DNA of 64,000 nucleotides from an uncultured Nitrospina sp. Lineage in GTDB: Bacteria; Nitrospinota; Nitrospinia; Nitrospinales; VA-1. Below the pieces are notes generated by a model. It was not told where the DNA came from. It saw only the letters and a list, made by a program, of their open reading frames with translations, and did not search any database. Below, piece after piece: positions 7,874 through 57,377 of the stretch. Each line of letters starts with the position of its first letter. The first letter of the stretch is position 1. Position numbers and translations under genes: made by a program. The DNA is taken from NCBI GenBank assembly GCA_937891765.1, contig CALAGQ010000047.1:16580-80579 (forward strand), given 5' to 3'.

Positions 7874-9202
7874 ATGGAAGAATTTGATGTGCTGGTGTTG
7901 GGGGGAGGGCTGGCCGGGGTTTCTGCCGCTCTGAGAGCCGCAGAACTGGGTGGAAACATCTGCCTGATTGAAAGAGACCCTATAGGGCAGGCGGGTTTTC
8001 AAAGAAGAAATGCGCTTTTTATTGAAAACGGCATCCTGCCTTCGATGAGTTGGGAAGACTATAAAACGATTTTAAACTCCGAAACTGAGCGATATTCTCA
8101 ATTGGCGGGAGAAAAACTAAATGCCGCCGGTGTGTCCGTTATAGAAGGGGAGGGAAGGCTTGCGAGTCCGACGGAGATCAGTGTTCAAAAGAGCGATGGT
8201 GAACATTTACTCTTAAAGGGTAGGTCGGTCATTCTGGCTTATGGTTCTGTATCCCGTTTTTCGTCGACCTTGCCTCGTGAAGATGGGATTGTCATAGACA
8301 TCGATGAGATATCAAAGCTCCCCGCGCTTCCTGAGAAAGTTCTTGTTGTAGGCGGGGGGCCCTTTGCCAGTGAGACGGCGCTGGGGCTCAATAGAAGGGG
8401 ATGCAAAGTTTTTCTTTGTTATGAAGAAAAAGAATTGTTTCCGCAAATGGATAGCGACTTCAATGTTGAGATAGAACGCCAGTTCAAAGAGAAGAAAATT
8501 AAAATCCTTCCGGGAAAAAAGTTGATTTCAATTTACAAAAATGGCGATGAACTGGAAATCACTTTGGAGACCGGTATCAAGTTCTCTGTCCATCAAATAA
8601 TTAATGCCGGTGACAGGGCCGGGATGGATGATAATGCAGTCGCTGAAAAACTGGGGGTTCGTTTAGGAGAACATCAAAAAATATTTGTTGACGATTCCAT
8701 GATGACGAGCTTGCCCGGAGTGTATGCTGTGGGAAGTAGTGCCGGCGAATTGACTAGCGATACGCTTTCCCAGGAAGAGGGCAAAGTTGCCGCGGAAAAT
8801 GCCATGGGGAAGAAAAGAATATTAAACCGGGAGTGGGTTCCACAAACTGTCCGCCTGGTTCCTGATGTGGCCTATGTGGGTTGTTCCATGAAGACGGCTC
8901 CATTTCAAGGATTTCATCCTGTCGAGGGTGTGTTCAAGGAGGATTTTACAGGCGCCGAAAATATGTCCTTTCCCAAAACCGGGGGAAAATATAAAGTTGT
9001 CGCAGATAAAAGGTCACGTCTGATTGTTGGGGTACAAATCATTTCACATCAGGCTGCTGATTGGATGCCGATACTTTTATTGTTGATTAAAAAGGGGGTC
9101 ACGGTGGGTAATCTGGCTAATTCCATCACTTCTGAGGGGTCTAAAATTAGAGGCTTGTGCGAGGCGGCCCGGAATTGTTCGAGGGCCTTGAAGTCCCCAT
9201 AA
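7874..9202 (+). CDS. FAD/NAD(P)-binding pyridine-nucleotide-disulfide-oxidoreductase-fold protein lacking the redox-active cysteine pair
   Basis: N-terminal FDVLVLGGGLAGVSAA (FAD GxGxxG), a second Rossmann motif VLVVGGGPFASE, GVYAVGS, and a C-terminal dimerisation-like domain. No CxxxxC follows the first Rossmann motif. Confidence 0.75.
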   Translation: MEEFDVLVLGGGLAGVSAALRAAELGGNICLIERDPIGQAGFQRRNALFIENGILPSMSWEDYKTILNSETERYSQLAGEKLNAAGVSVIEGEGRLASPTEISVQKSDGEHLLLKGRSVILAYGSVSRFSSTLPREDGIVIDIDEISKLPALPEKVLVVGGGPFASETALGLNRRGCKVFLCYEEKELFPQMDSDFNVEIERQFKEKKIKILPGKKLISIYKNGDELEITLETGIKFSVHQIINAGDRAGMDDNAVAEKLGVRLGEHQKIFVDDSMMTSLPGVYAVGSSAGELTSDTLSQEEGKVAAENAMGKKRILNREWVPQTVRLVPDVAYVGCSMKTAPFQGFHPVEGVFKEDFTGAENMSFPKTGGKYKVVADKRSRLIVGVQIISHQAADWMPILLLLIKKGVTVGNLANSITSEGSKIRGLCEAARNCSRALKSP

Positions 9203-9349: not shown

Positions 9350-9898
9350 ATGGCTGAGGCAGAGACGAAAGAAAAATCAGCATCCAAGGATGCTAAGGAA
9401 GATGAGGCGCAAAACACCATCTGGTCGCGTCGGGAATTTTTCTCGCTGGCGGGTTGGGCTGCGTTCTTAGGTTCCCTTGGGTTGTCCTCCCTGTATTTTG
9501 CGCGACTGCTTTTCCCGCGTGTCCTTTTTGAGCCTTCCCCGATATTCAAGGCGGGAAATCCCAGTGACTACACAGTCGGTGAAGTCAGCACCAAATTCGT
9601 TAAAGACCAGCGTGTTTGGATTGTTCGGGACTTGGAGGGTATTTATGTCATTTTTGCATTATGCACGCATTTGGGATGCACTCCCCGTTGGCTGAAAACA
9701 GAAAGTAAATACAAATGCCCCTGTCACGGTAGTGGTTTTACCAAGCAAGGGATTAACTTTGAAGGCCCGGCCCCGCGGGCTTTAGAGAGACTAAAGGTTG
9801 CTCTGGCTCCGGATGGGCAGATCATCGTTGATAAAAGTAAGAAATTTCTTTTTGAGAAGGATGAGTGGGGCAAACCAGGGGCGAAACTTTTTGTTTGA
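9350..9898 (+). CDS. Rieske [2Fe-2S] subunit of a cytochrome b6f/bc-type complex, with Tat signal
   Basis: Twin-arginine motif SRREFF followed by a TM helix. Cluster ligand boxes CTHLGC and CPCHGS. Confidence 0.9.
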   Translation: MAEAETKEKSASKDAKEDEAQNTIWSRREFFSLAGWAAFLGSLGLSSLYFARLLFPRVLFEPSPIFKAGNPSDYTVGEVSTKFVKDQRVWIVRDLEGIYVIFALCTHLGCTPRWLKTESKYKCPCHGSGFTKQGINFEGPAPRALERLKVALAPDGQIIVDKSKKFLFEKDEWGKPGAKLFV

Positions 9899-9912
9899 TG
9901 GAGGATTGAGTT

Positions 9913-10743
9913 TTGGCAAGTAATTCACCACAGATTCCGAGCATCGCGGAATTGATGGATAAAATTAAAAGTGGCAAGATATTCACTGAAATTGCCAAAG
10001 AGATTACAGAGTCACAGATCTGGACTTCTAGCTTCCGGCATGGTTATGCGGACACACCTCGAAACCGTGTTCTGCAGATCGCCAGTAATGTCTGGCTGCA
10101 TCTTCATCCTGTAAAGATTCATCGTCACGCCCTGCGAATCAAATTCACATGGTGCATGGGGGGGATCACTTTTCTTCTGTTTCTCTCCACCGTCGTGACC
10201 GGGGTTATCCTGATGTTCTATTACCGTCCTGTTGGGGAATACGCCTATTACGATATGAAGTATTTGCAATACGACGTTCCCTTCGGCATGCTCATGAGAA
10301 ATATGCATCGTTGGGCGGCTCATGCCATGGTTATCACCGTGTGGTTGCATATGTTTCGGGTCTTTTTAACCGGTTCGTATAAACCGCCGAGAGAGTTTAA
10401 CTGGGTCATTGGGGTATTTCTGGTTACGTTCACGCTGCTCCTCAGTTTTACCGGTTATCTCCTGCCTTGGGATCAATTGGCGATGTGGGCGGTCACCGTA
10501 GGCACCAACATGGCTCGTGCGACTCCGTTTCTGGGAAATGAAGGTCCGTTTGCAGAATTTGTCGGAGCGACTCCAAGGTATGACGCTCGTTCCTTATTGA
10601 TCGGGGGTAGCGTGGTCGGTCCTCCTGCTCTATTACGGTTTTACGTGTTGCATTGTATATTTATTCCTTTGATAGCCGGGGCCTTGATGATTGTGCATTT
10701 CTGGCGAATCCGTAAGGATGGTGGAATTTCCGGCCCTCTTTAG
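9913..10743 (+). CDS. Cytochrome b, b6-type (PetB-like, split form)
   Basis: WCMGGITF...[23 protein letters not shown] (His spacing 14), [17 protein letters not shown] (His spacing 15), PREFNW, and a GISGPL C-terminus as in cytochrome b6. TTG start. Confidence 0.9.
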
Positions 10744-10772
10744 GGCAGGTTTATATAAGGGGATAGGAAAAA

Positions 10773-11534
10773 ATGGCTCAGGCTGCAGCAGCACCCAAGA
10801 AAAAGATAGAAGCAGTTCCAGATAAGCTCCACGTGTGGCCCTATCTGGTCCGACTGGAGTTCCTTTGCGCTATTGTCACCATAGTGGCTCTTACGGTTTG
10901 GTCCATTGTTATTGATGCGCCGTTGGAAGAAGCGGCCAACCCTACCAAAACCCCAAACCCATCTAAAGCGCCTTGGTATTTTCTTGGGCTTCAGGACATT
11001 CTGGTTTATTTCGACCCATGGTTTGCGGGTGTTGTGGCTCCCGTCCTTATCATTGTTGGACTGATGCTGATTCCTTATCTGGATGTGAATCCTAAAGGGA
11101 ACGGGTATTACACCTATCATGAAAGAAAAGTAGCGATATGGGTTTACTGCTTTGGTTTTCTGGTGCTCTGGATCGCTTTGATCATTATGGGGGTTTTCTT
11201 GCGAGGACCGGGTTGGAATTTGTTCATGCCCTGGCAGTATTGGGACCCACATAAGGTCGTGGCCCTAACCAGTGTGGATCTGCCCTATGCGTTTGGTGTG
11301 CGGACCTACAATGGGGCCATGTTGTTTGGGGGAATGGTGCTATCGGCGTATTTTGCGATAGGCACGGCAGTCTATTTTTTCATGGAACGCAAGGCACTCA
11401 AGAGCGTCGGGTTCGTGAGAATGTTCATAAAGATTCAGCTACTCCTGATTATGGTTGGCATGGTCATCAAAATTGTTCTCAGGCTGGGTTTCAATATCAA
11501 GTATGTACTGGTGACACCCTGGTTTAATATTTAA
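10773..11534 (+). CDS. Cytochrome b C-terminal part / subunit IV homologue (PetD-like) with extra C-terminal TM helices
   Basis: The PWYFLGLQDIL motif corresponds to PEWYF of PetD and the cytochrome b C-terminal half. At 253 aa it is about 90 aa longer than PetD, with additional hydrophobic helices. Confidence 0.85.
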   Translation: MAQAAAAPKKKIEAVPDKLHVWPYLVRLEFLCAIVTIVALTVWSIVIDAPLEEAANPTKTPNPSKAPWYFLGLQDILVYFDPWFAGVVAPVLIIVGLMLIPYLDVNPKGNGYYTYHERKVAIWVYCFGFLVLWIALIIMGVFLRGPGWNLFMPWQYWDPHKVVALTSVDLPYAFGVRTYNGAMLFGGMVLSAYFAIGTAVYFFMERKALKSVGFVRMFIKIQLLLIMVGMVIKIVLRLGFNIKYVLVTPWFNI

Positions 11535-11557
11535 TAGCTTCAAGATCGAGAAATACA

Positions 11558-14254
11558 TTGGCAGAAGAAGAGCAAAAAAAAGAATTCAAAGAAGGGGAGT
11601 TTGACGAGCATACCTCGTACAGTTTCCTCTTTTTTCTGGTTTCAGCGGTAACGCTTTTTGTCACGCTTTGGGCGTTCTGGGACGACGAATACGCACGCCG
11701 AGGATTCAAGACTTATCAGGATCAGTATTTCAAGGAGCAGTTTGCCGTAGCGGAAGGTAAATGGAAAGCGGTCAACACTGAAATCGCCGAGACTGAGAAA
11801 CAGATCCGGGAAGGCCTGCAAAAAACTGAAAGTGAGTTGGAGTCTTCGGATGCCTATCTGGAATTGGTTGAAGAAGTTCGTCTCAAACAGGTGGCGGTTG
11901 ATGAGCAGAAAGAGCAGAAGAAATTCGCCGGTAGCCGGGTTGATGAGGCTTATTACTGGTATAAAAAGGCCATGCACGAAGGGGAAAATTATGATGTGCA
12001 ATTAGCGACCCATAATGCTGGGCAAGCTGAAGTGGCCTCTTTTGATCCAGTCATCGCAGAAAAAGAAGGGATATTACAAGAAGCAGAAAATAGATTATTG
12101 GAGGTGAAGTCCGGCTATATCAAATTGGAAAAAGATATGGCTAAACTAGTCATGAACAGGACTCAGCATGAGCTGACGATGGATTATTACAAGCCGTTTC
12201 CTTTTTTCTGGCGTCCTGCTGAAATCCTTCAAACCGTTATTCCGGGATTTGGTAAAAATAGTTTCAAAGAAATTATTTACCGGGTAGACCGGTGTATGAC
12301 CTGCCATATTTCATATCAGGACGAACATTACAAGGATTTTGCGCAGCCCTTAAAGACCCATCCGGATCTTGAAATTCTAATTAAGAAGCATCCTCCTGGA
12401 GTGACGGGGTGTACCTGGTGTCACTTGGGGCAGGGAACAGTTACAGCTCCGGCTGAGCACGCTCATGGTTCGCACCATGAGACGGATCAGACGGTTGAAG
12501 TTAATGAGCCCATCCTCCATGGCAAGCTCCAGCAGGCAACGTGCAGAAACTGTCACGCCGAAGTCGTCGATCTGGAAGGGGCTCCGATCTTGTCGAAGGG
12601 CAAAAGACTCTTTCTTAAATTGGGATGTCATGGTTGTCATTTAGCCGATGGTTATTCTAATGAGGCCAAGGTGGGTCCCCGGCTTTTGCGGATTGCCAGC
12701 AAGGTTAATCCGAGTTGGTTGTACCGTTGGATCAAAAATCCCAAAGAATATCTTCCCAAAACCCGAATGCCTGATTTTGGGTTTAACGAGAAAGACTTGA
12801 TGGGGGCCACGGCATATCTTTTAGCTTCTTCTGAGAAAAATTATGAGTTGCCCGCCAAGTTTGAATCCGGCGATGAGGATAAGGGCAAGAAATTATTCGA
12901 ATCTGTGGGTTGTCAGGGATGTCATCAACTCAATGGTAAAGGAGAAACCTTTGGTCCTGATCTGAGCCGAATTGGCAATAAGGTCAATGCCGATTGGTTG
13001 GTAACCTGGATCAGCCATCCTCACAGTTATAACGAAAAGAGCAAAATGCCTGATCTTAGACTGGATGAAGAACAGGCATCTGATATAGCCTCCTATCTCA
13101 TTCAGTTTGGCAAAGAAGAAGTGATCCCCGGACTTGAAGCAAAACTGCAAGATCCTGCGTTGATCAAACACGGGGAGACCATAGTTCGTCGTAGAGGTTG
13201 TTTTGCCTGCCATGACATTAAGGGAATGGAGAAGGAAGGCCGAATCGCGCCGGAGCTATCCTCCTTTGGCAGAAAAATGGTTGTGGAACTAGAATTTGGT
13301 GACTCACATATTCCGCATACTTGGGAATCTTGGGTTAAAACCAAATTGAAAAAACCGAACTCTTTCAGGACCGAGCGTGTTTTAGACAAAATGCCCAATT
13401 TCCACCTCGCACCGGATGAAATTGATGCCTTGGTTGTATTGCTGAAGGGTTTTAATGGATCAAATATTCCTCCGAATTACCGACGGATTCTCACAGATAA
13501 AGAGCAAACGATTGAAGCCGGGCGTCGCCTGGTCACCAAATATAATTGTAAGGCTTGCCATAATGTTGAAGGCGAAGGCGGGCACATACAGAAATATCTC
13601 ACGGCAACAGCTCAGTATCCTCCTCCACTGGATATGGGAGATTATCATGTGGGGGAACGGCTCAAAGCTTCCTGGTTGTTCTCTTTTCTGAAAGAGCCGA
13701 CACCTGTTAGAACCTGGATCAAGGTAAAGATGCCCACTTTCTTTTTCACCGATAAAGAAGTGAGGGATTTGACGGCCTACTTTGAAGCGTTATCTCCAAG
13801 TAGTGGCTATGAGGCGGGTATCCACCAAAGTAAAGATAGTGCTGTTGCACAAAAAGGCGCTGAAATGGTCAGCTATATGGACTGCGGACGTTGCCATGAT
13901 GATGGGCAAAAAGGAATTGAATTCTCATTGGCCAGTCAAAGGCTGCGACAGGATTGGATACCAAAATGGCTCAAAGACACCCGCACTCTGATCCCTTGGA
14001 CCCCGATGCCTTCTCATTGGGTTAAGGATGGCGATAAATATAAAATACCGACCAAATACAGTGAGATCAAAACGGTGGGTGATGTAGACACCCAGGTGAA
14101 TACGTTGAAAGACTTGATCGTTGCCTACAACACCGCTGAGCTGGACTTTGATGTGAGCTTGGGAGATGGCGGGGGTGAAGAAGAGGCTGCTGGTGAAGAA
14201 CGTGCTGCTGAAGAGGGTGGAGATGACGAAGAGGAAGAGGAAGAAGACAAATAG
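11558..14254 (+). CDS. Membrane-anchored octahaem c-type cytochrome (898 aa)
   Basis: Eight CxxCH motifs: CMTCH, CTWCH, CRNCH, CHGCH, CQGCH, CFACH, CKACH, CGRCH. The last five are each followed by an xMP motif, as in class I cytochrome c domains. It also has an N-terminal TM helix, a long coiled-coil region and an acidic tail DDEEEEEEDK. TTG start. Confidence 0.88.
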   Translation: MAEEEQKKEFKEGEFDEHTSYSFLFFLVSAVTLFVTLWAFWDDEYARRGFKTYQDQYFKEQFAVAEGKWKAVNTEIAETEKQIREGLQKTESELESSDAYLELVEEVRLKQVAVDEQKEQKKFAGSRVDEAYYWYKKAMHEGENYDVQLATHNAGQAEVASFDPVIAEKEGILQEAENRLLEVKSGYIKLEKDMAKLVMNRTQHELTMDYYKPFPFFWRPAEILQTVIPGFGKNSFKEIIYRVDRCMTCHISYQDEHYKDFAQPLKTHPDLEILIKKHPPGVTGCTWCHLGQGTVTAPAEHAHGSHHETDQTVEVNEPILHGKLQQATCRNCHAEVVDLEGAPILSKGKRLFLKLGCHGCHLADGYSNEAKVGPRLLRIASKVNPSWLYRWIKNPKEYLPKTRMPDFGFNEKDLMGATAYLLASSEKNYELPAKFESGDEDKGKKLFESVGCQGCHQLNGKGETFGPDLSRIGNKVNADWLVTWISHPHSYNEKSKMPDLRLDEEQASDIASYLIQFGKEEVIPGLEAKLQDPALIKHGETIVRRRGCFACHDIKGMEKEGRIAPELSSFGRKMVVELEFGDSHIPHTWESWVKTKLKKPNSFRTERVLDKMPNFHLAPDEIDALVVLLKGFNGSNIPPNYRRILTDKEQTIEAGRRLVTKYNCKACHNVEGEGGHIQKYLTATAQYPPPLDMGDYHVGERLKASWLFSFLKEPTPVRTWIKVKMPTFFFTDKEVRDLTAYFEALSPSSGYEAGIHQSKDSAVAQKGAEMVSYMDCGRCHDDGQKGIEFSLASQRLRQDWIPKWLKDTRTLIPWTPMPSHWVKDGDKYKIPTKYSEIKTVGDVDTQVNTLKDLIVAYNTAELDFDVSLGDGGGEEEAAGEERAAEEGGDDEEEEEEDK

Positions 14255-49799: not shown

Positions 49800-50570
49800 T
49801 TAAAATTTATAAGTCACTCCAACACCAAATTGGAACTGATGTTCAGACCCTAAAGTTCTAACCAGCGGACTCCTGGCGGCATCAGCAACCAATAGTTGGT
49901 ATCCAACAACGCCTTTCAAACTCCAATGTCGATCAATCCTTCGAGAAATATTTGTAACCAATGCTAAATCCTTCAAGCCACCTTCGCCGTCAAATTTTGT
50001 AATTCCCGATCGTATGGATTGGGCTGAAGTGATACCAAAGTAGGATTGTATGTAGTTGTCATCTGCGAAGGTCATGCTTGCCTTAACGTTCCAATCCACA
50101 TCCGTGTGGCGACCAAAGGAATAGCCGGCTCCAACAATTAGCAAAGTTCCGTCATGATTCCCTGAAATGTCAGTTTGGAGTTGGAGTGAGAGTGAGTACC
50201 TCTCCAATTCAAGCTTCGCAAAAATACGTCCATCAATTCCGCCATCAATATCGCCAAGCCCAGTTAGTATTGGGGAATCATCTTCATTCCTGGCCTCGTA
50301 ATAGCCCAATGATCCCCCAAACTCCAGATCACTATTATTCATAAGATAGACACCTAAACCTCTTTCAACATTTAAGAAAACCGATTTCCCCATGGAAATG
50401 TCGATGAGAGGCAAGATATCGAATTCGCTCGTATCGGCACCCTCATAATCGGGCCTGCTTAATGCAATGCCACCTAGCGATACTGAAAAATCGTCGGCCC
50501 TCAGAACCTCCGGTGAAATGGAGGAAAATATCAATAGTAATATTAATAGAGCTTGTTTCATGCTGTCCAA
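49800..50570 (-). CDS. MipA/OmpV-family outer-membrane beta-barrel protein
   Basis: Signal peptide, alternating beta-strand pattern, PDYEG motif near the N-terminus, and a C-terminal GVGVTYKF. Confidence 0.72.
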   Translation of the reverse strand: MDSMKQALLILLLIFSSISPEVLRADDFSVSLGGIALSRPDYEGADTSEFDILPLIDISMGKSVFLNVERGLGVYLMNNSDLEFGGSLGYYEARNEDDSPILTGLGDIDGGIDGRIFAKLELERYSLSLQLQTDISGNHDGTLLIVGAGYSFGRHTDVDWNVKASMTFADDNYIQSYFGITSAQSIRSGITKFDGEGGLKDLALVTNISRRIDRHWSLKGVVGYQLLVADAARSPLVRTLGSEHQFQFGVGVTYKF

Positions 50571-50692
50571 ATCCCCGTTATATTTATATCTTCTCTATTA
50601 TAGAGCGAACCTTGTTTCCTTATCGTTTGCATATCCGAAAACTAAAAAATATTTGACGATTATTTAATAAACTATTGGTGATCGATAAATTG

Positions 50693-50721
50693 TGGACAAT
50701 GTCGCGGTATTAAGTTAAAGT
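50693..50721 (+). promoter_or_regulatory. Candidate sigma70-type promoter for the bfd-like gene
   Basis: TGGACA (50693-50698), 17-nt spacer, TAAAGT (50716-50721). Confidence 0.35.
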
Positions 50722-50740
50722 AATGAGAATCGTTCTCATT
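50722..50740. promoter_or_regulatory. Fur-family (Fur/Zur/Nur-like) operator candidate
   Basis: AATGAGAA-TCG-TTCTCATT is a perfect 8-bp inverted repeat. The core TGAGAAT-C-GTTCTCA resembles the 7-1-7 Fur motif TGATAAT-N-ATTATCA. It lies just downstream of the candidate -10 and 26 nt upstream of the bfd-like ATG. Confidence 0.5.
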
Positions 50741-50765
50741 CTAGGGTCTTTATTGCTTTGAATTC

Positions 50766-51050
50766 ATGAATCTTCCTCCCAGTGTTGAAATCGACGAAGT
50801 CATCTGTCAATGCTATCAGGTCACTGAAAGCGCCATCCGCAATTCCATCTCCGAAGGCAAACTAAAGGATATTGATTCCGTCACAACGGCTTGTGGAGCC
50901 GGTGGGGGGTGCCATTCCTGCCATATTCTTATTCAGCTTTTCATCGACCAGCATCAGGAAAAACACACAGCCATGGAGGATCTGGTCCACGATCACGCGC
51001 AGAAGGTGAAAAAGAAGGGTATTCTGAGCCGCTTCTTCAAGAGGTTCTAG
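50766..51050 (+). CDS. BFD-like [2Fe-2S]-binding domain protein (bacterioferritin-associated-ferredoxin-like)
   Basis: Cys pattern CQC ... (about 33 aa) ... CGAGGGCHSC, matching the BFD-like C-x-C...C-x2-C arrangement. 94 aa. Confidence 0.7.
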   Translation: MNLPPSVEIDEVICQCYQVTESAIRNSISEGKLKDIDSVTTACGAGGGCHSCHILIQLFIDQHQEKHTAMEDLVHDHAQKVKKKGILSRFFKRF

Positions 51051-51178
51051 TCAGCGGACAGCACTTCCCGGGGCGCGAACTGCTTTCCTATCTCTGTTTG
51101 TTCTTTCCAAACTCCGATCCTTTTGATAGTTTAATTCCCAGAGTCGGATTTTTTATAATCTACAACTCCCTAATTAAA

Positions 51179-51730
51179 ATGAAACCAGAAAATTTTGTTT
51201 TATACAGTGGTGGTGCTCAGGGTGCGGAGACCGAGTTCGGTAAACAGGCGGAGAAGACGGGTGTGCAGGAAGTGACCCTGACTTTTGAGGGCCATAAAAT
51301 TTTCCGGGAACGTGGGGTGAGGGTATTGACCACCGATGAGCTACTGAAAGGCGATGTGAGTCTGGCTTATATTGCCAAGTTGATGAATCGCAAATTTAAT
51401 ACCGGCAAGTTATTCAAAAAAGTTCTGCAGAGTATCTGGCATCAGATCAATTGCGCCGAAGAGGTGTTTGTGGTGGGTAAAATTCTCGATGACAATACCG
51501 TCAAGGGCGGTACCGGTTGGGGCGCGGAATTCAGCAAGCTGTGTAACAAGACTCTACATGTTTTTGATCAGGAGCAAGACTCATGGTTCAAGTGGAGTAC
51601 AGATTCCTGGAAAAAAGAAAAACAGCCTAAAATAAAATGCAAAAACTTTGCCGGAACCGGGACCCGGTTTTTGAATGGGAATGGTAAAAAAGCTATCAAA
51701 GATTTGTTCGACGCCTCCTTCAAAAAATAA
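51179..51730 (+). CDS. Hypothetical Rossmann-like protein (possible SLOG/DprA-LOG superfamily)
   Basis: The ATG at 51179 gives MKPENFVLYSGGAQGAETEFGKQAEK..., where SGGAxGxE/D resembles SLOG-type nucleotide-binding folds. The longer ORF from 50891 overlaps the bfd-like gene and looks non-coding in its first ~96 codons. Confidence 0.4.
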   Translation: MKPENFVLYSGGAQGAETEFGKQAEKTGVQEVTLTFEGHKIFRERGVRVLTTDELLKGDVSLAYIAKLMNRKFNTGKLFKKVLQSIWHQINCAEEVFVVGKILDDNTVKGGTGWGAEFSKLCNKTLHVFDQEQDSWFKWSTDSWKKEKQPKIKCKNFAGTGTRFLNGNGKKAIKDLFDASFKK

Positions 51731-51736
51731 ATCACA

Positions 51737-52942
51737 TTGAAATCTCTCCGTGTCGCTTATTTTGATTGTTATTCCGGTATCAGCGGTGACATGATTCTGG
51801 GAGCCTTGATCGATCTGGGAGTGGATCCTGCAAAAGTCCGCAAGGCCCTCGTGACTCTTGATCTTAAGGGATACAAATTCCAAACTCGAAAGGTTCAGCG
51901 CGGCCTGATCTCAGGCACCAAGGCCCAGGTCAACGTAGAAAAGCACCCCCACCAAAAGGCCCGGAAATATTCTGACATTAAAAAATTGCTTGCCAACTCG
52001 GACCTGTCTGCGACTTCAAAAAAAAACGCCCAGGAAATTTTTAGACGTATTGCCCAAGTGGAAGCGGCGGTCCATAAAACAACCATAGAGAAAATTCACT
52101 TCCATGAAGTTGGGGCGGTGGATTCGATTGTGGATATTGTTGGCGGCGTGGTCGCCATTGAATCTTTAAAGCTTGACAGGGTTTATGCCTCGCCCCTCAA
52201 TGTCGGTGAAGGGTTTGTTCAATGCGCTCATGGGTACCTGCCTGTTCCCGCTCCCGCTACGTTGAAACTTCTGAAGGGGATTCCTATTTTCTCCAGCGGG
52301 ATTAAAAAAGAGCTGACCACGCCTACAGGTGCGGCCATGATCGGCTTTTATGCCGATCATTTCGGAACCCTTCCCGCTATGAAAATCATCGATGATGGCT
52401 ATGGGGCAGGGGACCACATTATTCCGGAGATGCCCAATATGCTCAGGGTTATTTTGGGCGATATGTGTGAGGAGCCGGGTGAGGAGCTTGTGATGATCGA
52501 AACCAATATTGATGACATGAATCCGGAACTTTATGAAGAGGCCATAGACTCTTTATTTAAAGCAGGGGCATTGGATGTTTTTTTGAGTCCGATCATCATG
52601 AAGAAGGGTCGCCCCGCCAACAAAATTTCGGTTCTCTCGAGCGAGAGTGATAGACAGGCCTTGAGCGAAATACTGCTGCAGGAAACGTCGAGCTTTGGAG
52701 TTCGTTATTACAAGGTTGGAAGGACGGTTTTAGAGCGTGAAATGAAAACCGTTAAGACCTCATGGGGTCCCATCAAAATAAAAATTGGTAAATTAAATGG
52801 AAAGGTCGTGCAAGCCTCTCCCGAGTACGAAGATTGCAAAAGACTGTCTATTAAAGAAAAAATCTCTGTTGTTATTGTCTATAATGAAGTCCACTGCCAG
52901 GCAAGAAAGCTAATTTCCTGGCCAAAATTATCCCTCAAGTAA
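51737..52942 (+). CDS. larC: Nickel insertion protein LarC (DUF111 family)
   Basis: YFDCYSGISGDMILGALIDLG, FHEVGAVDSIVDIVG and TPTGAA motifs. TTG start. Confidence 0.85.
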   Translation: MKSLRVAYFDCYSGISGDMILGALIDLGVDPAKVRKALVTLDLKGYKFQTRKVQRGLISGTKAQVNVEKHPHQKARKYSDIKKLLANSDLSATSKKNAQEIFRRIAQVEAAVHKTTIEKIHFHEVGAVDSIVDIVGGVVAIESLKLDRVYASPLNVGEGFVQCAHGYLPVPAPATLKLLKGIPIFSSGIKKELTTPTGAAMIGFYADHFGTLPAMKIIDDGYGAGDHIIPEMPNMLRVILGDMCEEPGEELVMIETNIDDMNPELYEEAIDSLFKAGALDVFLSPIIMKKGRPANKISVLSSESDRQALSEILLQETSSFGVRYYKVGRTVLEREMKTVKTSWGPIKIKIGKLNGKVVQASPEYEDCKRLSIKEKISVVIVYNEVHCQARKLISWPKLSLK

Positions 52943-52995: not shown

Positions 52996-54231
52996 TTAGA
53001 ATGCCAGCACGATCCCAAGTACCCCGGTATGGGTCTTTTCAGGCCTCGGGGTGCTGGTTTCTTCCAGATCTGCCGTGACTTCGGCCATGAGCTTGAAGTT
53101 TCTGGCCAGCCAGTAGGAAAAGTTTATCGTGAAGGTGCTGGCATCCAGCGCCCGGTTGCCATTAACTTTGACCTTGTTGTAAAGCAGGGATGCAATCCAG
53201 TTATCCATGAAGGGATAGGTGACGCCCAAGAACCCTCCCCATGATTTAATTGTTAGAGAACCTCCTGCAGTGGAAAAACCAGGGTTGGAATCTTCTCCAT
53301 AAAGAACATTTCCCCAAAAAGAGAAGGTGTCGGCGATCATAAATTCAAAGTCAGGGCCGACTCGGAAAAATTCATTTCTTATATTGCCAGAATTTTGTTC
53401 CCGCCCGGAGTAGCCGTAGAAACCTATCTTATCCCCATTAAAATCAAAAGACAGTTTTCCATAAAAGTTTTTAAATTCATCCGAGTCGAAATTGCGATCA
53501 CTGTCGGCAACGCCGATTCCATTGCCATTGGTGACAGCGCCCGCAACTCCCATTCCGATAGAATCGGTCAAATCAAAGTTATAGGACACTTCGACAATGC
53601 GGTCATAAGTGAGGCGAAAATTGCTGTTACTAACAGCTGTTGTGTAATACGTAAAGTCCTGAAAGGTTAACCGCTGCTCGCGGGGAAACAAGATGTCTGA
53701 GGCTTGAAACTGACCAACCCTCATATCCAGATCAACATCTTTATAACCATCGTTAAAAAGAATGAATGCATCTTCGATACCGGTTATGTCTCCGCGCTCA
53801 TCAACGAAGAAATAAAAATAATAACTAATATCTTTCTTAATAGGTGCGCTGGATAAAAGTTTTATCGAAAAAGGAGCTTGAAAGTCGTTGGTGACTTTTT
53901 TGTCACTGCGTGCCCGAAAAAATGTATCGACCCGGATAGCAAGAGGAAGCCGGTCGAGCAGTAGGAGATCTTCATCTCCGGTATCGACCACTTGGTCTTT
54001 AAGGTCCGCACCTGGCAGTTGGTAACCATTACGAATAAAAGCTTCACCAAATCCATTTAGCTTTGGGAATCCAATATGGCAGGTGACACAACTTAGTTTG
54101 TGGCGCCGGGCGAAAGCGGGAATGGCGTGAGCCGATTCAACAGAAATTGTCGAGATTAAAAGAAATGCCGTGAACAAATAAACAAAGCTGAGTACGCTTG
54201 ATGATAGGGGTGGAGAGGATTTGGAATTCAT
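52996..54231 (-). CDS. Outer-membrane beta-barrel protein with an N-terminal CxxCH haem-c motif
   Basis: Signal peptide (…VESAHA), then IPAFARRHKLSCVTCHIGFPKLNGFGEAF, followed by about 330 aa of alternating beta-strand-like sequence ending in LGIVLAF (aromatic terminus). Confidence 0.65.
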   Translation of the reverse strand: MNSKSSPPLSSSVLSFVYLFTAFLLISTISVESAHAIPAFARRHKLSCVTCHIGFPKLNGFGEAFIRNGYQLPGADLKDQVVDTGDEDLLLLDRLPLAIRVDTFFRARSDKKVTNDFQAPFSIKLLSSAPIKKDISYYFYFFVDERGDITGIEDAFILFNDGYKDVDLDMRVGQFQASDILFPREQRLTFQDFTYYTTAVSNSNFRLTYDRIVEVSYNFDLTDSIGMGVAGAVTNGNGIGVADSDRNFDSDEFKNFYGKLSFDFNGDKIGFYGYSGREQNSGNIRNEFFRVGPDFEFMIADTFSFWGNVLYGEDSNPGFSTAGGSLTIKSWGGFLGVTYPFMDNWIASLLYNKVKVNGNRALDASTFTINFSYWLARNFKLMAEVTADLEETSTPRPEKTHTGVLGIVLAF

Positions 54232-54462
54232 GCATACTCCTTTTTGTTATTTTTAATGTCTCTTAGCACTAGATATACTGAATGGAAAGAATATTCCCGT
54301 TCGTATATTCTTTTTAAAGCAAATTGAGTGCAGAGGGAAATTAAATTGTTAGCAGACTCATGTGTTGGCTGCTAAATGTGCCTCTAAGTGACTTTAAACA
54401 TTGAAATTATTTCATTTTATGCAACTCTGTAGGGGTGCAAATCTTTCTGACGGGAGGTTCTT

Positions 54463-55244: not shown

Positions 55245-55691
55245 TTGACCATGTTATTCAAAAGAAATATGTTGATTGCGGTTTTGGTGTGGGCTCTTTT
55301 GGTCACCACCAATGCGTTGGCTCATCCCCATCATCACGGGGATCATCTGAATCAGCATGGGGATCACCAGCATCAGCAAAATTCCGTAGTCTCGCCTTTT
55401 GATGGTCCGAAAGGAGTTCAATCTTTACACTGTCTCCTGAGAGGCCACAGTCATCAGGTATTTTGTCCTCATTTAAAACCTGATAGTGCTCAGAACACCA
55501 ATATTGCCACAGATTGTGGCGGTAAAACTTCAGGCTCGATCCCCAATAGCACATTCTTTAGCAGTGAATTTGCGGAAATAAATTGTCTTTCCCTGATTCC
55601 TCATTCGCCGGGCAAAAAGCTGGCACCTTCAATAGTTCGTCTCTATCATCGTTGTACCGATCCACTAGATCCTCCTCCTCGATTTATCTGA
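55245..55691 (+). CDS. Secreted His/Cys-rich putative metal-binding protein (148 aa)
   Basis: Signal peptide, then HPHHHGDHLNQHGDHQHQQ and SLHCLLRGHSHQVFCPH. Start is TTG 55245 or ATG 55251. Confidence 0.55.
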   Translation: MTMLFKRNMLIAVLVWALLVTTNALAHPHHHGDHLNQHGDHQHQQNSVVSPFDGPKGVQSLHCLLRGHSHQVFCPHLKPDSAQNTNIATDCGGKTSGSIPNSTFFSSEFAEINCLSLIPHSPGKKLAPSIVRLYHRCTDPLDPPPRFI

Positions 55692-55847
55692 TTATATTCC
55701 CCTGGTTTTAAAACTTCAGGTCGGTGTGTGATCCTTTTTTCAGGGACTATGCGCAATTTGGGTTTTTCTTTTTGCGTGTCCTTGAAATAAGAGAATCCCT
55801 TTTGCTTCCGACCAACTAAAAATAATTGATATTTCGAGGGAGCGGCA

Positions 55848-56861
55848 ATGTTGAGTAGTTCTAAAGTAAAAACCATTTATGCAGTATTTTTATCCATTGT
55901 ATGCCTGTTGAGTTTCAATCCAATTGTTGAGGCGGCTTGCGGAGGAGCCAACTGTTCTCTGCTTACAGGATCTCAAGATGGTGTGTTGGGTAAGGACAGG
56001 TTTGTCATGGACTTGTCTTATCGATATGTCCTGTCGGAAAATCCACACCGTGGTTCGGATAGCACAAATCAAGCATTGGTTCCAAAAGTGAATTTTGAAA
56101 CAAGAGCGCTTGAGCTGGGTCATCATAATGAAATAAGAACGATAAACAAGCTCGCCCAGTTCGATATCAGCTATGGTGTGACAGATAAATTAACTCTTTC
56201 GATGAACATGCCCTTTTTCAATGACCGTTATCACGAACATTTTGATGGGATAGAAAATGTCGGAGATACCGGGACATTTAACAATACAGACGGGACAACT
56301 GGGTTTGGTGATGTCACTTTAATTGCTAAATATGCTTTGTGGCAAACAACGAAGCACATGTTTGTCGGTGGAGTCGGGATAAAATTTGCGACAGGAGACT
56401 ATAAATTAAAAGATACGTCCGGGAGTATCAACGAACCCACATTGATGCCGGGTACGGGTTCTTACGATGCAATTCTTTCGGGAATTTATAATTACTCCGC
56501 TATTCCTAATAAGTTAAACATTTTCACATCTGTGTCGCACAGGTTTGCAACAGAAAATGATCTGGATTATCAGTTTGGAGATACCACACTCATTGATGCA
56601 GGCGTCGGTTATGTGCTGACAAAAAAAGTTAGTGTAAGCGGTCAGGTGAATATGAGGATTTCCGGACGGGACCAGTTTATTGATGCAAATGTGCCAAGCA
56701 CAGGTGGCGAATTTATTTTTATTACACCGGGAGTCAGACTTGCTGTGTATGATGATGTTTCTATTTATTCGCATGTTCAGCTACCCATATACCAGAGAGT
56801 CAATGATGTGAACCTGGTAGAGGATTATGGAGTTATGCTGGGCGCTTCCTATAATTTTTAA
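55848..56861 (+). CDS. Outer-membrane beta-barrel protein (MetA-pathway/transporter-like family pattern)
   Basis: Signal peptide, a CGGANC pair directly after the predicted cleavage site, alternating beta-strand pattern, and C-terminal GASYNF. Confidence 0.6.
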   Translation: MLSSSKVKTIYAVFLSIVCLLSFNPIVEAACGGANCSLLTGSQDGVLGKDRFVMDLSYRYVLSENPHRGSDSTNQALVPKVNFETRALELGHHNEIRTINKLAQFDISYGVTDKLTLSMNMPFFNDRYHEHFDGIENVGDTGTFNNTDGTTGFGDVTLIAKYALWQTTKHMFVGGVGIKFATGDYKLKDTSGSINEPTLMPGTGSYDAILSGIYNYSAIPNKLNIFTSVSHRFATENDLDYQFGDTTLIDAGVGYVLTKKVSVSGQVNMRISGRDQFIDANVPSTGGEFIFITPGVRLAVYDDVSIYSHVQLPIYQRVNDVNLVEDYGVMLGASYNF

Positions 56862-56873
56862 ATTTTTAGAAAT

Positions 56874-57377
56874 ATGCGATTACCTTTAGTCATACTTTTT
56901 AGTTTCTTTTTGTCGGGCATGGCTGGTTCCCCTCCCTTTGTGGGAGGGGAGGCCCCAATGTTTGAATTAAAGACCCTAAATGGTAAGGTCCTTAAGCTGT
57001 CTGATTTAAAGGGTAAAACTGTTGTCCTAAACTTTTGGGCTACATGGTGTGTGCCATGTATTAAAGAAATGTCAGTTTTGAACAATGCATACTCTTCATT
57101 TAAGAACAGAGATGTTGAGATAGTAGCCATTAATTTCGCAGAATCTAGAGAAAAAGTGGAAGAGTTCACATCCGAACATCGTTTGAACTTCCCTGTTTTA
57201 TTGGATAACTATGGTGATACATCACAAGATTATAAAATTAGAGGTCTGCCTGTGACGTATTTCATCACTCCCGACGGTATCGTAGGTGATGAAATAGTGG
57301 GTGGTTTAACCCTGGAACTGATTGAAGAAAAGCTCGATCAATTAGCGCACCTGTTGCAACTCAAAGCGCAATATTGA
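56874..57377 (+). CDS. Periplasmic thiol:disulfide oxidoreductase, TlpA/ResA-like thioredoxin fold
   Basis: Signal sequence, NFWATWCVPC (CxxC) and RGLPVTYFI (cis-Pro loop). Confidence 0.85.
   Translation: MRLPLVILFSFFLSGMAGSPPFVGGEAPMFELKTLNGKVLKLSDLKGKTVVLNFWATWCVPCIKEMSVLNNAYSSFKNRDVEIVAINFAESREKVEEFTSEHRLNFPVLLDNYGDTSQDYKIRGLPVTYFITPDGIVGDEIVGGLTLELIEEKLDQLAHLLQLKAQY

What the first reader, a model, noticed from the sequence alone, without database searches (positions are those of the whole stretch)
52996..54231. Outer-membrane beta-barrel with an N-terminal haem-c (CxxCH) motif
After a signal peptide the mature protein starts IPAFARRHKLSCVTCHIGFPKLNGFGEAFIRNGY. This is a single CxxCH in a conserved-looking segment. 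It is followed by about 330 residues with alternating hydrophobic periodicity, Gly/Asn/Asp-rich turns and a terminal …GIVLAF typical of OMP C-termini. A covalently haem-binding porin-like protein would be unusual. Possible roles are a haem-plugged barrel, an electron conduit across the outer membrane, or a haem/iron uptake component. From memory, similar N-terminal segments occur in unannotated proteins of other Gram-negative bacteria, but I know of no characterised member.
Basis: partly seen in the sequence, partly recalled or inferred. Interest (0 to 1): 0.55.

Follow-up and report, generated by a model that had tools for sequence, protein, structure and literature searches.

The report
Cyc2-type cytochrome-porin fusion in Nitrospina
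The gene encodes an outer-membrane barrel with one covalently bound haem at its N-terminus; it belongs to the already described Cyc2 family of iron-oxidising "fused cytochrome-porins", so it is real and well formed but not a new kind of protein.

Summary
Window 52996-54231 (minus strand) encodes an intact 411-aa protein. It has a signal peptide and a single CxxCH (C48/C51/H52, its only cysteines). AlphaFold2 predicts a 16-stranded beta-barrel (pLDDT 86) ending in ...GIVLAF.

The claim that no characterised member exists is wrong. This is the architecture and signature of Cyc2, the fused monohaem cytochrome-porin Fe(II) oxidase of Acidithiobacillus, Mariprofundus and Leptospirillum. The published defining features are all present: signal peptide, one CXXCH, AXPXFAR[Q/K][T/Y] upstream (here AIPAFARRH; AIPAFARKY in the family consensus), PXL four residues downstream (PKL), at least 365 aa, and a 16-strand porin.

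The haem module is clearly homologous (E about 1e-12) to canonical-motif proteins of Burkholderiales and Hyphomicrobiales. Barrel similarity to them is only marginal. MAGs that hold 38-43% identical relatives are already published as Cyc2 carriers, and cyc2-like genes in Nitrospinae/Nitrospinaceae were reported in 2019 and 2025.

The most likely role is oxidation of dissolved Fe(II) inside the pore, with electrons passed to periplasmic cytochromes. Here the gene stands alone, and no Nitrospina is shown to oxidise iron, so the physiological role is inferred.

Verdict: new member of a known kind; low to moderate interest.

The parts
52996..54231 (-). Complete cyc2-like gene (411 codons plus stop)
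   Evidence: ORF list. Same length as its closest homologues, 411 aa at 79-90% identity. 1975 homologues in the 90% clustered database. 4203 clusters at 50% identity match the profile at E<=1e-3.
54237..54242 (-). Shine-Dalgarno sequence AAGGAG, 7 nt upstream of the ATG
   Evidence: Read directly from the sequence. No promoter or terminator above shuffle background.
54124..54231 (-). Signal peptide, residues 1-36, predicted cleavage after A-H-A
   Evidence: Sequence. Poorly conserved (mean column identity 0.25) except A36. The A-x-A site always lies two residues before the invariant Pro in homologues. Cleavage is inferred, not shown.
53941..54123 (-). N-terminal haem-c module, residues 37-97 (short helices, lower model confidence because haem is absent from the model)
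   Evidence: Most conserved part together with loops L3 and L4. Invariant P38 C48 C51 H52 P56 G62 G69. Homologous to the module of canonical-motif proteobacterial proteins: hhalign probability about 98%, E about 1e-12.
54100..54126 (-). Cyc2 signature AXPXFAR[Q/K][T/Y]; here A36-I-P-A-F-A-R-R-H44
   Evidence: Motif definition from Keffer 2021. The window protein has R/H at the last two positions. The family consensus is AIPAFARKY and distant representatives carry the canonical form.
54076..54090 (-). Haem-c attachment motif C48-V-T-C51-H52
   Evidence: Invariant in all full-length homologues examined. These are the only two Cys in the protein.
54058..54066 (-). PXL motif (P56-K-L58), four residues after the CxxCH
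   Evidence: Keffer 2021 definition. P56 is invariant and L58 at least 90% conserved.
52999..53940 (-). 16-stranded beta-barrel porin domain, residues 98-411
   Evidence: AF2 DSSP strands. Foldseek to 16-stranded general porins. Sub-threshold Pfam Porin_4 match, E 0.003.
53608..53703 (-). Loop between strands 5 and 6 (the position of the constriction loop L3 in general porins), residues 177-208, carrying the subfamily motif F-P-R-E-Q-R-L-T-F-Q-D
   Evidence: Conservation map: D179 R184 E185 R187 L188 T189 D192 Y196 at least 90% conserved. This motif was the pattern that recovered 370 species genomes. A role in lining the pore or haem pocket is inferred only.
53470..53529 (-). Conserved Asn/Gly/Asp-rich loop L4, residues 235-254 (NGNGIGVADSDRNFDSDEFK), predicted extracellular
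   Evidence: N235 G236 N237 G238 I239 F248 D249 K254 at least 90% conserved. Topology is inferred from a periplasmic N-terminus. A cation-capture role is speculative.
52999..53028 (-). Last strand with C-terminal beta-signal (TGVLGIVLAF, terminal Phe)
   Evidence: Terminal F or Y in all homologues.

Best explanation
[quoted passage not shown] Proposed mechanism, with each step marked. (1) Sec export and cleavage after A36 (inferred from sequence). (2) Covalent haem attachment to C48/C51 by the periplasmic cytochrome c maturation system, with H52 as proximal ligand (inferred; shown by haem staining for other Cyc2 proteins). (3) BAM-dependent insertion using the C-terminal ...VLAF signal, giving a 16-strand barrel (barrel predicted here with high confidence). 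(5) Dissolved Fe2+ enters the pore, which is rich in conserved acidic residues, and reduces the haem; Fe3+ then leaves (by analogy with Cyc2PV-1 and A. ferrooxidans Cyc2). (6) The electron passes to soluble periplasmic c-type cytochromes and on to a terminal oxidase, or uphill to the bc complex (inferred). Such cytochromes are encoded next to the gene in several Nitrospinota relatives but not in this window. My confidence that this is a Cyc2-family fused cytochrome-porin is about 0.9. My confidence that its physiological substrate in this organism is Fe(II) is about 0.5.
For: Every feature used to define Cyc2 (Keffer 2021) is present. These are the signal peptide and single CxxCH, the AXPXFAR motif and PXL at the stated spacing, 411 aa, and a 16-strand porin fold. 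The CxxCH and motif are invariant across the 120 closest hits and the 35 distant full-length representatives inspected, within a family of 4203 clusters at 50% identity. The haem module is homologous to Caballeronia, Ralstonia and Methylocystis proteins carrying the exact AxPxFARQT...CxxCH...PEL motif (hhalign about 98%, E 1e-12). Two of these sit beside HiPIP and c-type cytochrome genes. Their orders form the network cluster directly linked to A. ferrooxidans Cyc2. Intermediates extend the alignment to 120-150 residues, and a broad profile aligns collinearly over 366 columns (99.1%, E 1e-18). MAGs holding 38-43% identical relatives (L033, L036, L039, L045) are listed by name as Cyc2-like carriers in PMC9769843. 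cyc2-like genes were reported in Nitrospinae/Nitrospinaceae MAGs. Relatives have adjacent electron carriers: class I cytochromes c in Nitrospinota loci L003-L006, L008 and L009, and a co-oriented 4-5-haem cytochrome directly upstream in 47 of 73 loci. There are 13 conserved acidic against 8 conserved basic residues and a mature net charge of -12, consistent with the acidic tunnel seen in Cyc2 models.
Against: No experiment exists on this protein or on any Nitrospinota homologue. In the window the gene is solitary, with a convergent LarC gene, a divergent hypothetical gene and no partner cytochrome nearby. Synteny is kept only in the two closest MAGs. The window protein has R-H where the published motif has [Q/K][T/Y]. 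Barrel-only profile comparison with the proteobacterial proteins is marginal (probability 11%, P 0.003, score 29 against 10-18 for controls). I could not run the FeGenie HMMs or place the protein in the three-cluster tree. Nitrospina is known as a nitrite oxidiser, not an iron oxidiser. Keffer et al. themselves warn that many Cyc2 homologues occur in organisms not known to oxidise iron and need verification.
Confidence: 0.62

Rival explanations
1. Same fused cytochrome-porin machine but a different extracellular electron donor, for example Mn(II) or another reduced metal or mineral-derived species, rather than Fe(II).
For: A 42% identical relative lies in a Candidatus Manganitrophaceae MAG (L073). 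In that family Cyc2 is a conserved candidate for Mn(II) oxidation. This subfamily has an unusually conserved barrel interior (L3 and L4 motifs), which could reflect a specific substrate. The tunnel biofilms where Nitrospinaceae cyc2 genes were reported oxidise both iron and manganese.
Against: Every Cyc2 tested so far oxidises Fe(II). Mn(II) oxidation by any Cyc2 is only a hypothesis, and the Mn(II)/Mn(III) couple is much harder to oxidise with a roughly +200 mV haem.
Confidence: 0.12
2. The conduit runs outward: it delivers respiratory electrons from periplasmic cytochromes to an extracellular acceptor such as Fe(III), or works in both directions.
For: In the FCB-group relatives the gene is always paired with a 4-5-haem c554/NapC/c7-like cytochrome. 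Many of those lineages (Ignavibacteria/Melioribacter, Krumholzibacteria) are described as iron reducers or carry iron-reduction genes as well.
Against: Nitrospinota are aerobic chemolithoautotrophs with no known need for an extracellular acceptor. The window gene lacks the multihaem partner. The measured potential of Cyc2PV-1 (+208 mV) suits electron uptake from Fe(II).
Confidence: 0.1
3. A non-respiratory role at the cell surface: oxidising stray Fe(II) for detoxification, conditioning iron for uptake, or redox sensing, without energy conservation.
For: The gene is monocistronic with no electron-transport neighbours in this genome. Neighbouring genes are metal-related but unrelated to respiration: LarC, a BFD-like [2Fe-2S] protein and a His-rich secreted protein. 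Cyc2 homologues are widespread in non-iron-oxidisers.
Against: Those neighbours are not conserved beyond the closest MAGs. Other Nitrospinota copies do sit next to periplasmic cytochromes c. No precedent exists for such a role.
Confidence: 0.12
4. An ordinary diffusion porin with a fortuitous CxxCH; no haem is attached.
For: Weak Pfam Porin_4 match. The fold matches general porins.
Against: The CxxCH and its flanking motif are invariant in all full-length homologues examined, within a family of thousands of clusters. They are the only cysteines, with a chance expectation of about 0.0013. The module is homologous to that of haem-stained, functionally tested family members as defined.
Confidence: 0.01

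Closest known systems
Cyc2 fused cytochrome-porins: Cyc2PV-1 of Mariprofundus ferrooxydans (Cluster 1), Cyc2 of Acidithiobacillus ferrooxidans (Cluster 2), Cyt572 of Leptospirillum and the 2026 Thermodesulfovibrionia Cyc2 (Cluster 3)
   Same: Signal peptide, one CXXCH about 11 residues into the mature protein, the AXPXFAR... and PXL motifs, about 400 aa, a 16-strand barrel and a terminal aromatic residue. The haem module is homologous to canonical-motif members.
   Different: R-H instead of [Q/K][T/Y] at the end of the signature in this particular protein. It belongs to a subfamily (Nitrospinota, Nitrospirota, FCB-group phyla) whose barrel is unusually well conserved: about 40% identity across phyla, with invariant L3 and L4 motifs. 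The host is a presumed nitrite oxidiser. There is no adjacent cyc1-like cytochrome or oxidase operon. Cluster assignment was not determined.
Porin-cytochrome complexes MtrCAB / MtoAB / PioAB / Pcc
   Same: An outer-membrane barrel combined with c-type haem to move electrons across the outer membrane. The FCB-group relatives pair the barrel with a separate multihaem cytochrome.
   Different: Those are 26-strand barrels that sheathe a separate decahaem protein, with haems spanning the membrane. Here there are 16 strands, one haem and a single polypeptide.
General 16-stranded diffusion porins (OmpF/OmpC/OmpK36, Omp32, OmpT/OmpU, PhoE; OprO/OprP cited for Cyc2)
   Same: Fold: Foldseek E about 1e-11, TM 0.47-0.67, with a long L3-position loop.
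   Different: 10-17% identity. No porin Pfam model passes threshold. The porins have no haem module.
Cytochrome f (resemblance of the N-terminus only; from memory)
   Same: The mature N-terminus X-P-x-F-A-(R/Q)... precedes a CxxCH, and there is no conserved Met or second His for distal ligation. In cytochrome f the N-terminal amino group is the sixth haem ligand (established knowledge).
   Different: The spacing to the CxxCH differs, and a profile of the module finds no cytochrome f among PDB sequences at E up to 10. This is an untested analogy, not homology.

Membership tests
Cyc2 fused cytochrome-porin (definition of Keffer et al. 2021 / FeGenie) | N-terminal signal peptide | tested here: met
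   Residues 1-36: a hydrophobic core followed by an A-H-A site. Judged by eye, because no SignalP tool was available.
Cyc2 fused cytochrome-porin (definition of Keffer et al. 2021 / FeGenie) | Exactly one CXXCH haem-binding motif near the N-terminus | tested here: met
   C48-V-T-C51-H52. These are the only cysteines, and the motif is invariant in homologues.
Cyc2 fused cytochrome-porin (definition of Keffer et al. 2021 / FeGenie) | AXPXFAR[Q/K][T/Y] (screen: PXFAR[Q/K][T/Y]) just upstream of the CXXCH | tested here: inconclusive
   The window protein reads AIPAFAR-R-H, so the AXPXFAR core is met but the last two positions are R and H instead of [Q/K][T/Y]. Close homologues read ...FARKY or ...FARRY, and the family consensus is AIPAFARKY. 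A strict regular-expression screen would drop this protein but keep many of its orthologues.
Cyc2 fused cytochrome-porin (definition of Keffer et al. 2021 / FeGenie) | PXL motif four residues downstream of the CXXCH | tested here: met
   H52-I-G-F-P56-K-L58. P56 is invariant and L58 at least 90% conserved.
Cyc2 fused cytochrome-porin (definition of Keffer et al. 2021 / FeGenie) | Length of at least 365 aa | tested here: met
   411 aa.
Cyc2 fused cytochrome-porin (definition of Keffer et al. 2021 / FeGenie) | 16-stranded beta-barrel porin following the cytochrome module | tested here: met
   AF2 pLDDT 86.4, 16 DSSP strands. Foldseek matches 16-strand porins at E about 1e-11.
Cyc2 fused cytochrome-porin (definition of Keffer et al. 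2021 / FeGenie) | Sequence homology to recognised Cyc2 proteins (BLAST or FeGenie HMM hit; placement in Cluster 1, 2 or 3) | tested here: inconclusive
   Sequences of validated Cyc2s and the FeGenie HMMs were not available. Indirect evidence follows. The haem module is homologous to canonical-motif Burkholderiales and Hyphomicrobiales proteins (E 1e-12; broad profile E 1e-18 over 366 columns). Barrel-only similarity is marginal (P 0.003). MAGs with 38-43% identical relatives are published as Cyc2-like carriers. Cluster not assigned.
Cyc2 fused cytochrome-porin (definition of Keffer et al. 2021 / FeGenie) | Covalently bound haem and Fe(II) oxidase activity | not testable with these tools
   Needs expression with ccm genes, haem staining and an Fe(II) reduction assay, as done for Cyc2PV-1 and a Nitrospirota Cyc2.
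Cyc2 pathway context (typical, not defining) | Adjacent periplasmic electron carrier (cyc1-like cytochrome c, HiPIP, rusticyanin) or oxidase genes | tested here: not met
   The neighbours are LarC (convergent) and an unannotated 217-aa protein (divergent). No partner homologue is nearby in the window. The feature is met in relatives L003-L006, L008, L009 and in 47 of 73 loci overall.
Porin-multihaem cytochrome complexes (MtrAB / MtoAB / PioAB) | 26-strand barrel plus a separate decahaem cytochrome threaded through it | tested here: not met
   16 strands, a single haem motif and one polypeptide.
General Gram-negative porins (Pfam Porin_4 and relatives) | Profile match above the curated threshold | tested here: not met
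   Porin_4 scores 17.9 bits against a cut-off of 27. There is no NCBIfam hit. Only the fold matches.

The most novel reading that the evidence does not exclude
The window protein represents a distinct, tightly conserved Cyc2 subfamily shared by Nitrospinota, Nitrospirota and FCB-group phyla. It shows about 40% identity across phyla, invariant L3 and L4 loop motifs, and a dedicated 4-5-haem partner in the FCB group. Its substrate or direction of electron flow might differ from classical Fe(II)-oxidising Cyc2. In Nitrospina it would then give a supposedly obligate nitrite oxidiser a second lithotrophic or extracellular electron-exchange mode. A side hypothesis concerns the haem ligand. The signal-peptidase site lies at a fixed distance from the CxxCH and no distal His or Met is conserved, so the free N-terminal amino group may be the sixth haem ligand, as in cytochrome f.
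Probability: 0.15. Interest if true: 0.55.

Novelty: new member of a known kind. Interest (0 to 1): 0.22.

Why it matters
The finding adds little that is conceptually new. Fused cytochrome-porins are an established family with diagnostic motifs, HMMs and biochemical validation, and their presence in Nitrospinae genomes has been noted more than once. It matters modestly for two reasons. First, marine Nitrospina are treated as dedicated nitrite oxidisers, so a functional Fe(II) oxidase would widen their known energy sources and link the nitrogen and iron cycles in oxygen-poor waters and on mineral surfaces. Second, general annotation resources still miss this family. Pfam and NCBIfam give no above-threshold hit, and every database copy listed in the first search is either unnamed or called 'hypothetical protein'. 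A naive reader therefore sees it as unknown.

Tried and rejected
1. The afdb50 fold search, which would have given named UniProt Cyc2 matches, was not available.
2. I looked for reference Cyc2 sequences in paper supplements. Keffer 2021 holds none as text. The tunnel-biofilm paper's supplements do not mention cyc2. The SWIR supplement lists the bins, but its machine-read sequences are garbled and the cluster column is lost.
3. A full-text search for motif strings (FARQY and similar) returned only OCR noise and cheese papers.
4. A profile of the 45-residue haem module searched against the 5.8-billion-protein database returned only 66 short fragments of 43-79 aa, apparently because candidates are chosen near the query length. 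It says nothing about family span, and one search was wasted.
5. Source names for ten distant representatives were almost all absent.
6. The cytochrome f idea found no support: a module profile finds no cytochrome f among PDB sequences up to E = 10. I kept it only as speculation.
7. Full-length homology to proteobacterial Cyc2-cluster proteins looked strong at first. The barrel-only control showed that the score comes almost entirely from the haem module.
8. I considered a functional link to the window's neighbours (LarC, the His-rich protein, the MetA-like OMP, the ResA-like thioredoxin). I rejected it as a conserved system because synteny stops at the two closest MAGs.
9. The promoter and terminator scans gave nothing above shuffles.
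10. A PDB sequence search with the whole protein gave only a weak TodX segment match.
Full report
OBSERVATION. It has an AAGGAG ribosome-binding site 7 nt before the ATG. The N-terminus is a standard Sec signal with an A-H-A cleavage site after residue 36, so the mature protein would begin IPAFARRHKLSCVTCH... as quoted. C48 and C51 are the only cysteines in the protein. A CxxCH is expected by chance about 0.0013 times in a protein of this size and composition, and no other PxFAR...CxxCH occurs in any frame of the window. Base composition around the gene is unremarkable.

THE BARREL. An AlphaFold2 model built on a 68-sequence alignment is confident: mean pLDDT 86.4, pTM 0.82. After a short helical N-terminal module (residues 37-97) it shows 16 long beta-strands, the last ending in the C-terminal ...GIVLAF. 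Foldseek against the PDB returns only classical 16-stranded general porins (OmpT/OmpU, Omp32, OmpK36, OmpF/OmpC, PhoE) at E about 1e-11 and TM up to 0.67, with 10-17% identity. No solved Cyc2 structure appeared.

THE FAMILY. Pfam gives only a sub-threshold Porin_4 match and NCBIfam nothing. This explains why every database copy is labelled hypothetical. Homologues are nevertheless abundant. There are 1975 in the 90%-clustered collection; the best are Nitrospina/Nitrospinaceae (50-90% identity), followed by Nitrospirota, KSB1 and Bacteroidota at about 40%. At 50% clustering, 4203 clusters match at E<=1e-3, 1799 at E<=1e-10 and 211 at E<=1e-30. A scan of one genome per species found 370 genomes with a relative. 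They fall in Nitrospinota, Nitrospirota including Manganitrophaceae, Calditrichota, KSB1, Ignavibacteriota, Krumholzibacteriota and Latescibacterota. The single CxxCH and its surroundings (A-x-P-x-F-A-R-[K/R/Q]-[Y/H/T]-x3-C-x-x-C-H-x3-P-x-L) are present in every full-length member I inspected, near and far.

IDENTIFICATION AS CYC2. Keffer et al. 2021 define the Cyc2 family of fused cytochrome-porins by six features. These are a signal peptide, one CXXCH, the family-specific AXPXFAR[Q/K][T/Y] motif just upstream, PXL four residues downstream, at least 365 residues, and a 16-stranded porin. The window protein meets all of them with one small exception: its signature ends R-H rather than [Q/K][T/Y]. 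Its orthologues and the family consensus read ...FARKY.

I could not obtain sequences of the biochemically validated proteins or the FeGenie HMMs, so I linked the protein to the family indirectly in three ways.

(a) tblastn on plasmid and secondary-replicon records found Caballeronia, Ralstonia, Paraburkholderia and Methylocystis genes. The three I extracted (Caballeronia, Ralstonia, Methylocystis) carry the exact canonical motif AxPxFARQT...CxxCH...PEL. Two of them lie beside HiPIP and c-type cytochrome genes. The window family profile matches their signal peptide and haem module with probability about 98% and E about 1e-12. Burkholderiales and Hyphomicrobiales homologues are reported as the network cluster directly connected to A. 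ferrooxidans Cyc2.

(b) Intermediate sequences extend the alignment to 120-150 residues. A broader profile aligns collinearly over 366 columns (99.1%, E 1e-18). A barrel-only control is marginal, however: probability 11%, P 0.003, score 29 against 10-18 for reversed or shuffled controls. Homology is therefore demonstrated for the haem module, while the barrels share architecture more than recognisable sequence. This matches the 6-16% identity reported among validated Cyc2 clusters.

(c) Four loci with 38-43% identical relatives (L033, L036, L039, L045) come from MAGs named individually as carrying cyc2-like sequences in the Southwest Indian Ridge study. That study also lists Nitrospinota among Cyc2-bearing phyla.

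Cyc2 homologues in Nitrospinae/Nitrospinaceae were also reported in 2019 and 2025, and in Krumholzibacteria in 2021.

CONTEXT. In the window the gene is monocistronic. LarC (nickel-pincer cofactor synthesis) converges on its 3' end, and an unannotated 217-aa gene diverges from its 5' end. This arrangement is kept only in the two closest Nitrospina MAGs, L001 and L002. A copy with 81% identity (L003) already lies elsewhere. Across 73 analysable loci the recurrent neighbours are electron carriers. A co-oriented 4-5-haem cytochrome of about 450 aa (Pfam c554/NapC/c7-like) lies directly upstream in 47 loci, all outside Nitrospinota. One to three class I cytochromes c (or a four-domain one) lie beside the gene in Nitrospinota loci L003-L006, L008 and L009. 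A 250-aa secreted protein with a SHOCT-like tail lies downstream in nine other Nitrospinota loci. None of these partners has a homologue near the gene in the window. The only hit is generic cytochrome c similarity to an octahaem protein 40 kb away.

MECHANISM. Shown here: an intact gene, an invariant haem motif, a confident 16-strand barrel, and a homologous haem module. Inferred from the family's literature: covalent haem attachment in the periplasm; a position of the module at the periplasmic mouth of the barrel; entry of dissolved Fe2+ into the pore; one-electron transfer to the haem (about +208 mV in Cyc2PV-1); and hand-over to periplasmic cytochromes. Within this subfamily conservation is concentrated in four places. 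These are the haem module, strands 3-5, the loop at the L3 (constriction-loop) position carrying F-P-R-E-Q-R-L-T-F-Q-D, and an Asn/Gly/Asp-rich L4 loop. There are 13 conserved acidic against 8 conserved basic residues, and the mature net charge is -12. This agrees with the acidic tunnel to the haem described for AlphaFold models of other Cyc2 proteins. I could not inspect model coordinates, so the placement of the haem module is not tested here.

RIVALS. A different substrate cannot be excluded; Mn(II) has been proposed for Manganitrophaceae Cyc2. Outward electron flow is suggested by the multihaem partner in lineages described as iron reducers. A non-respiratory surface role would fit the solitary gene. 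A fortuitous CxxCH in an ordinary porin is excluded by conservation.

AN UNTESTED SIDE IDEA. The predicted signal-peptidase site is the first A of the AXPXFAR motif in every member, so the mature N-terminus lies a fixed 11 residues before the CxxCH. No second His or Met is conserved above 60%. This recalls cytochrome f, whose N-terminal amino group ligates the haem. A module profile finds no cytochrome f in PDB sequences, and I found no literature on the Cyc2 distal ligand. It remains speculation.

VERDICT. The novelty claim is not: this is a Cyc2-family fused cytochrome-porin, a new member of a known kind in a phylum where the family has already been noted. Interest is low to moderate. It rests on the open question of what a Cyc2 does in a nitrite oxidiser, and on the well-conserved subfamily it belongs to.

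Noticed in passing
window 9350-14254 (+): A Rieske protein (9350-9898), a split cytochrome b (9913-10743 and 10773-11534) and an 898-aa protein with eight CxxCH motifs (11558-14254) lie in a row. This looks like a bc-type complex with a large fused multihaem cytochrome c subunit, a plausible sink or relay for periplasmic electrons.
   Followed up: partly
window 55245-57377 (+): Three genes lie in a row. The first is a secreted His-rich 148-aa protein (HPHHHGDHLNQHGDHQHQQ). The second is a MetA/phenol-degradation-type outer-membrane protein with CGGANC right after its signal peptide. The third is a ResA/TlpA-like thiol-disulfide oxidoreductase, the type used in cytochrome c maturation. Only the His-rich gene is kept next to cyc2, and only in L002.
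   Followed up: partly
window 49800-52942: The neighbours on the other side are a MipA-family OMP (49800-50570, -), a small BFD-like [2Fe-2S] protein (50766-51050, +), an unannotated ORF (about 51185-51730, +) and LarC, the nickel-pincer cofactor protein (51737-52942, +). They are syntenic in L002 only.
   Followed up: partly
L025-L080 (for example L030 6330-7694, L041 6661-7977, L077 6543-7913): In 47 of 73 loci, all outside Nitrospinota (mainly FCB-group phyla), the cyc2-like gene lies directly downstream of a co-oriented 4-5-haem cytochrome of about 450 aa (c554/NapC/c7-like by Pfam). This looks like a conserved two-gene module. I did not find it described in the papers I read.
   Followed up: partly
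L007, L012-L018, L022 (for example L014 9206-9973): Nine Nitrospinota loci have a conserved gene of about 250-265 aa immediately downstream of cyc2. It encodes a secreted protein with a SHOCT-like C-terminal tail and no other family match. It has no homologue in the window.
   Followed up: partly
L016 about 8001-9185: In Nitrospina sp. SI073_bin146 the cyc2-like gene is split into two ORFs (136 aa with the CxxCH, and 222 aa). This suggests a frameshift, a pseudogene or an assembly error.
   Followed up: no
L079: A contig labelled 'archaeon' carries the multihaem-plus-cyc2 pair, followed by genes with 12 and 14 CxxCH motifs. An outer-membrane barrel in an archaeon is implausible, so this is probably a mis-binned bacterial contig.
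   Followed up: no
L003 (Nitrospina sp. SI036_bin78): The copy with 81% identity lies in a different neighbourhood from the window. An 8-haem, 488-aa protein is encoded two genes upstream on the opposite strand, and a 147-aa class I cytochrome c directly downstream. The gene's location therefore varies within the genus.
   Followed up: partly
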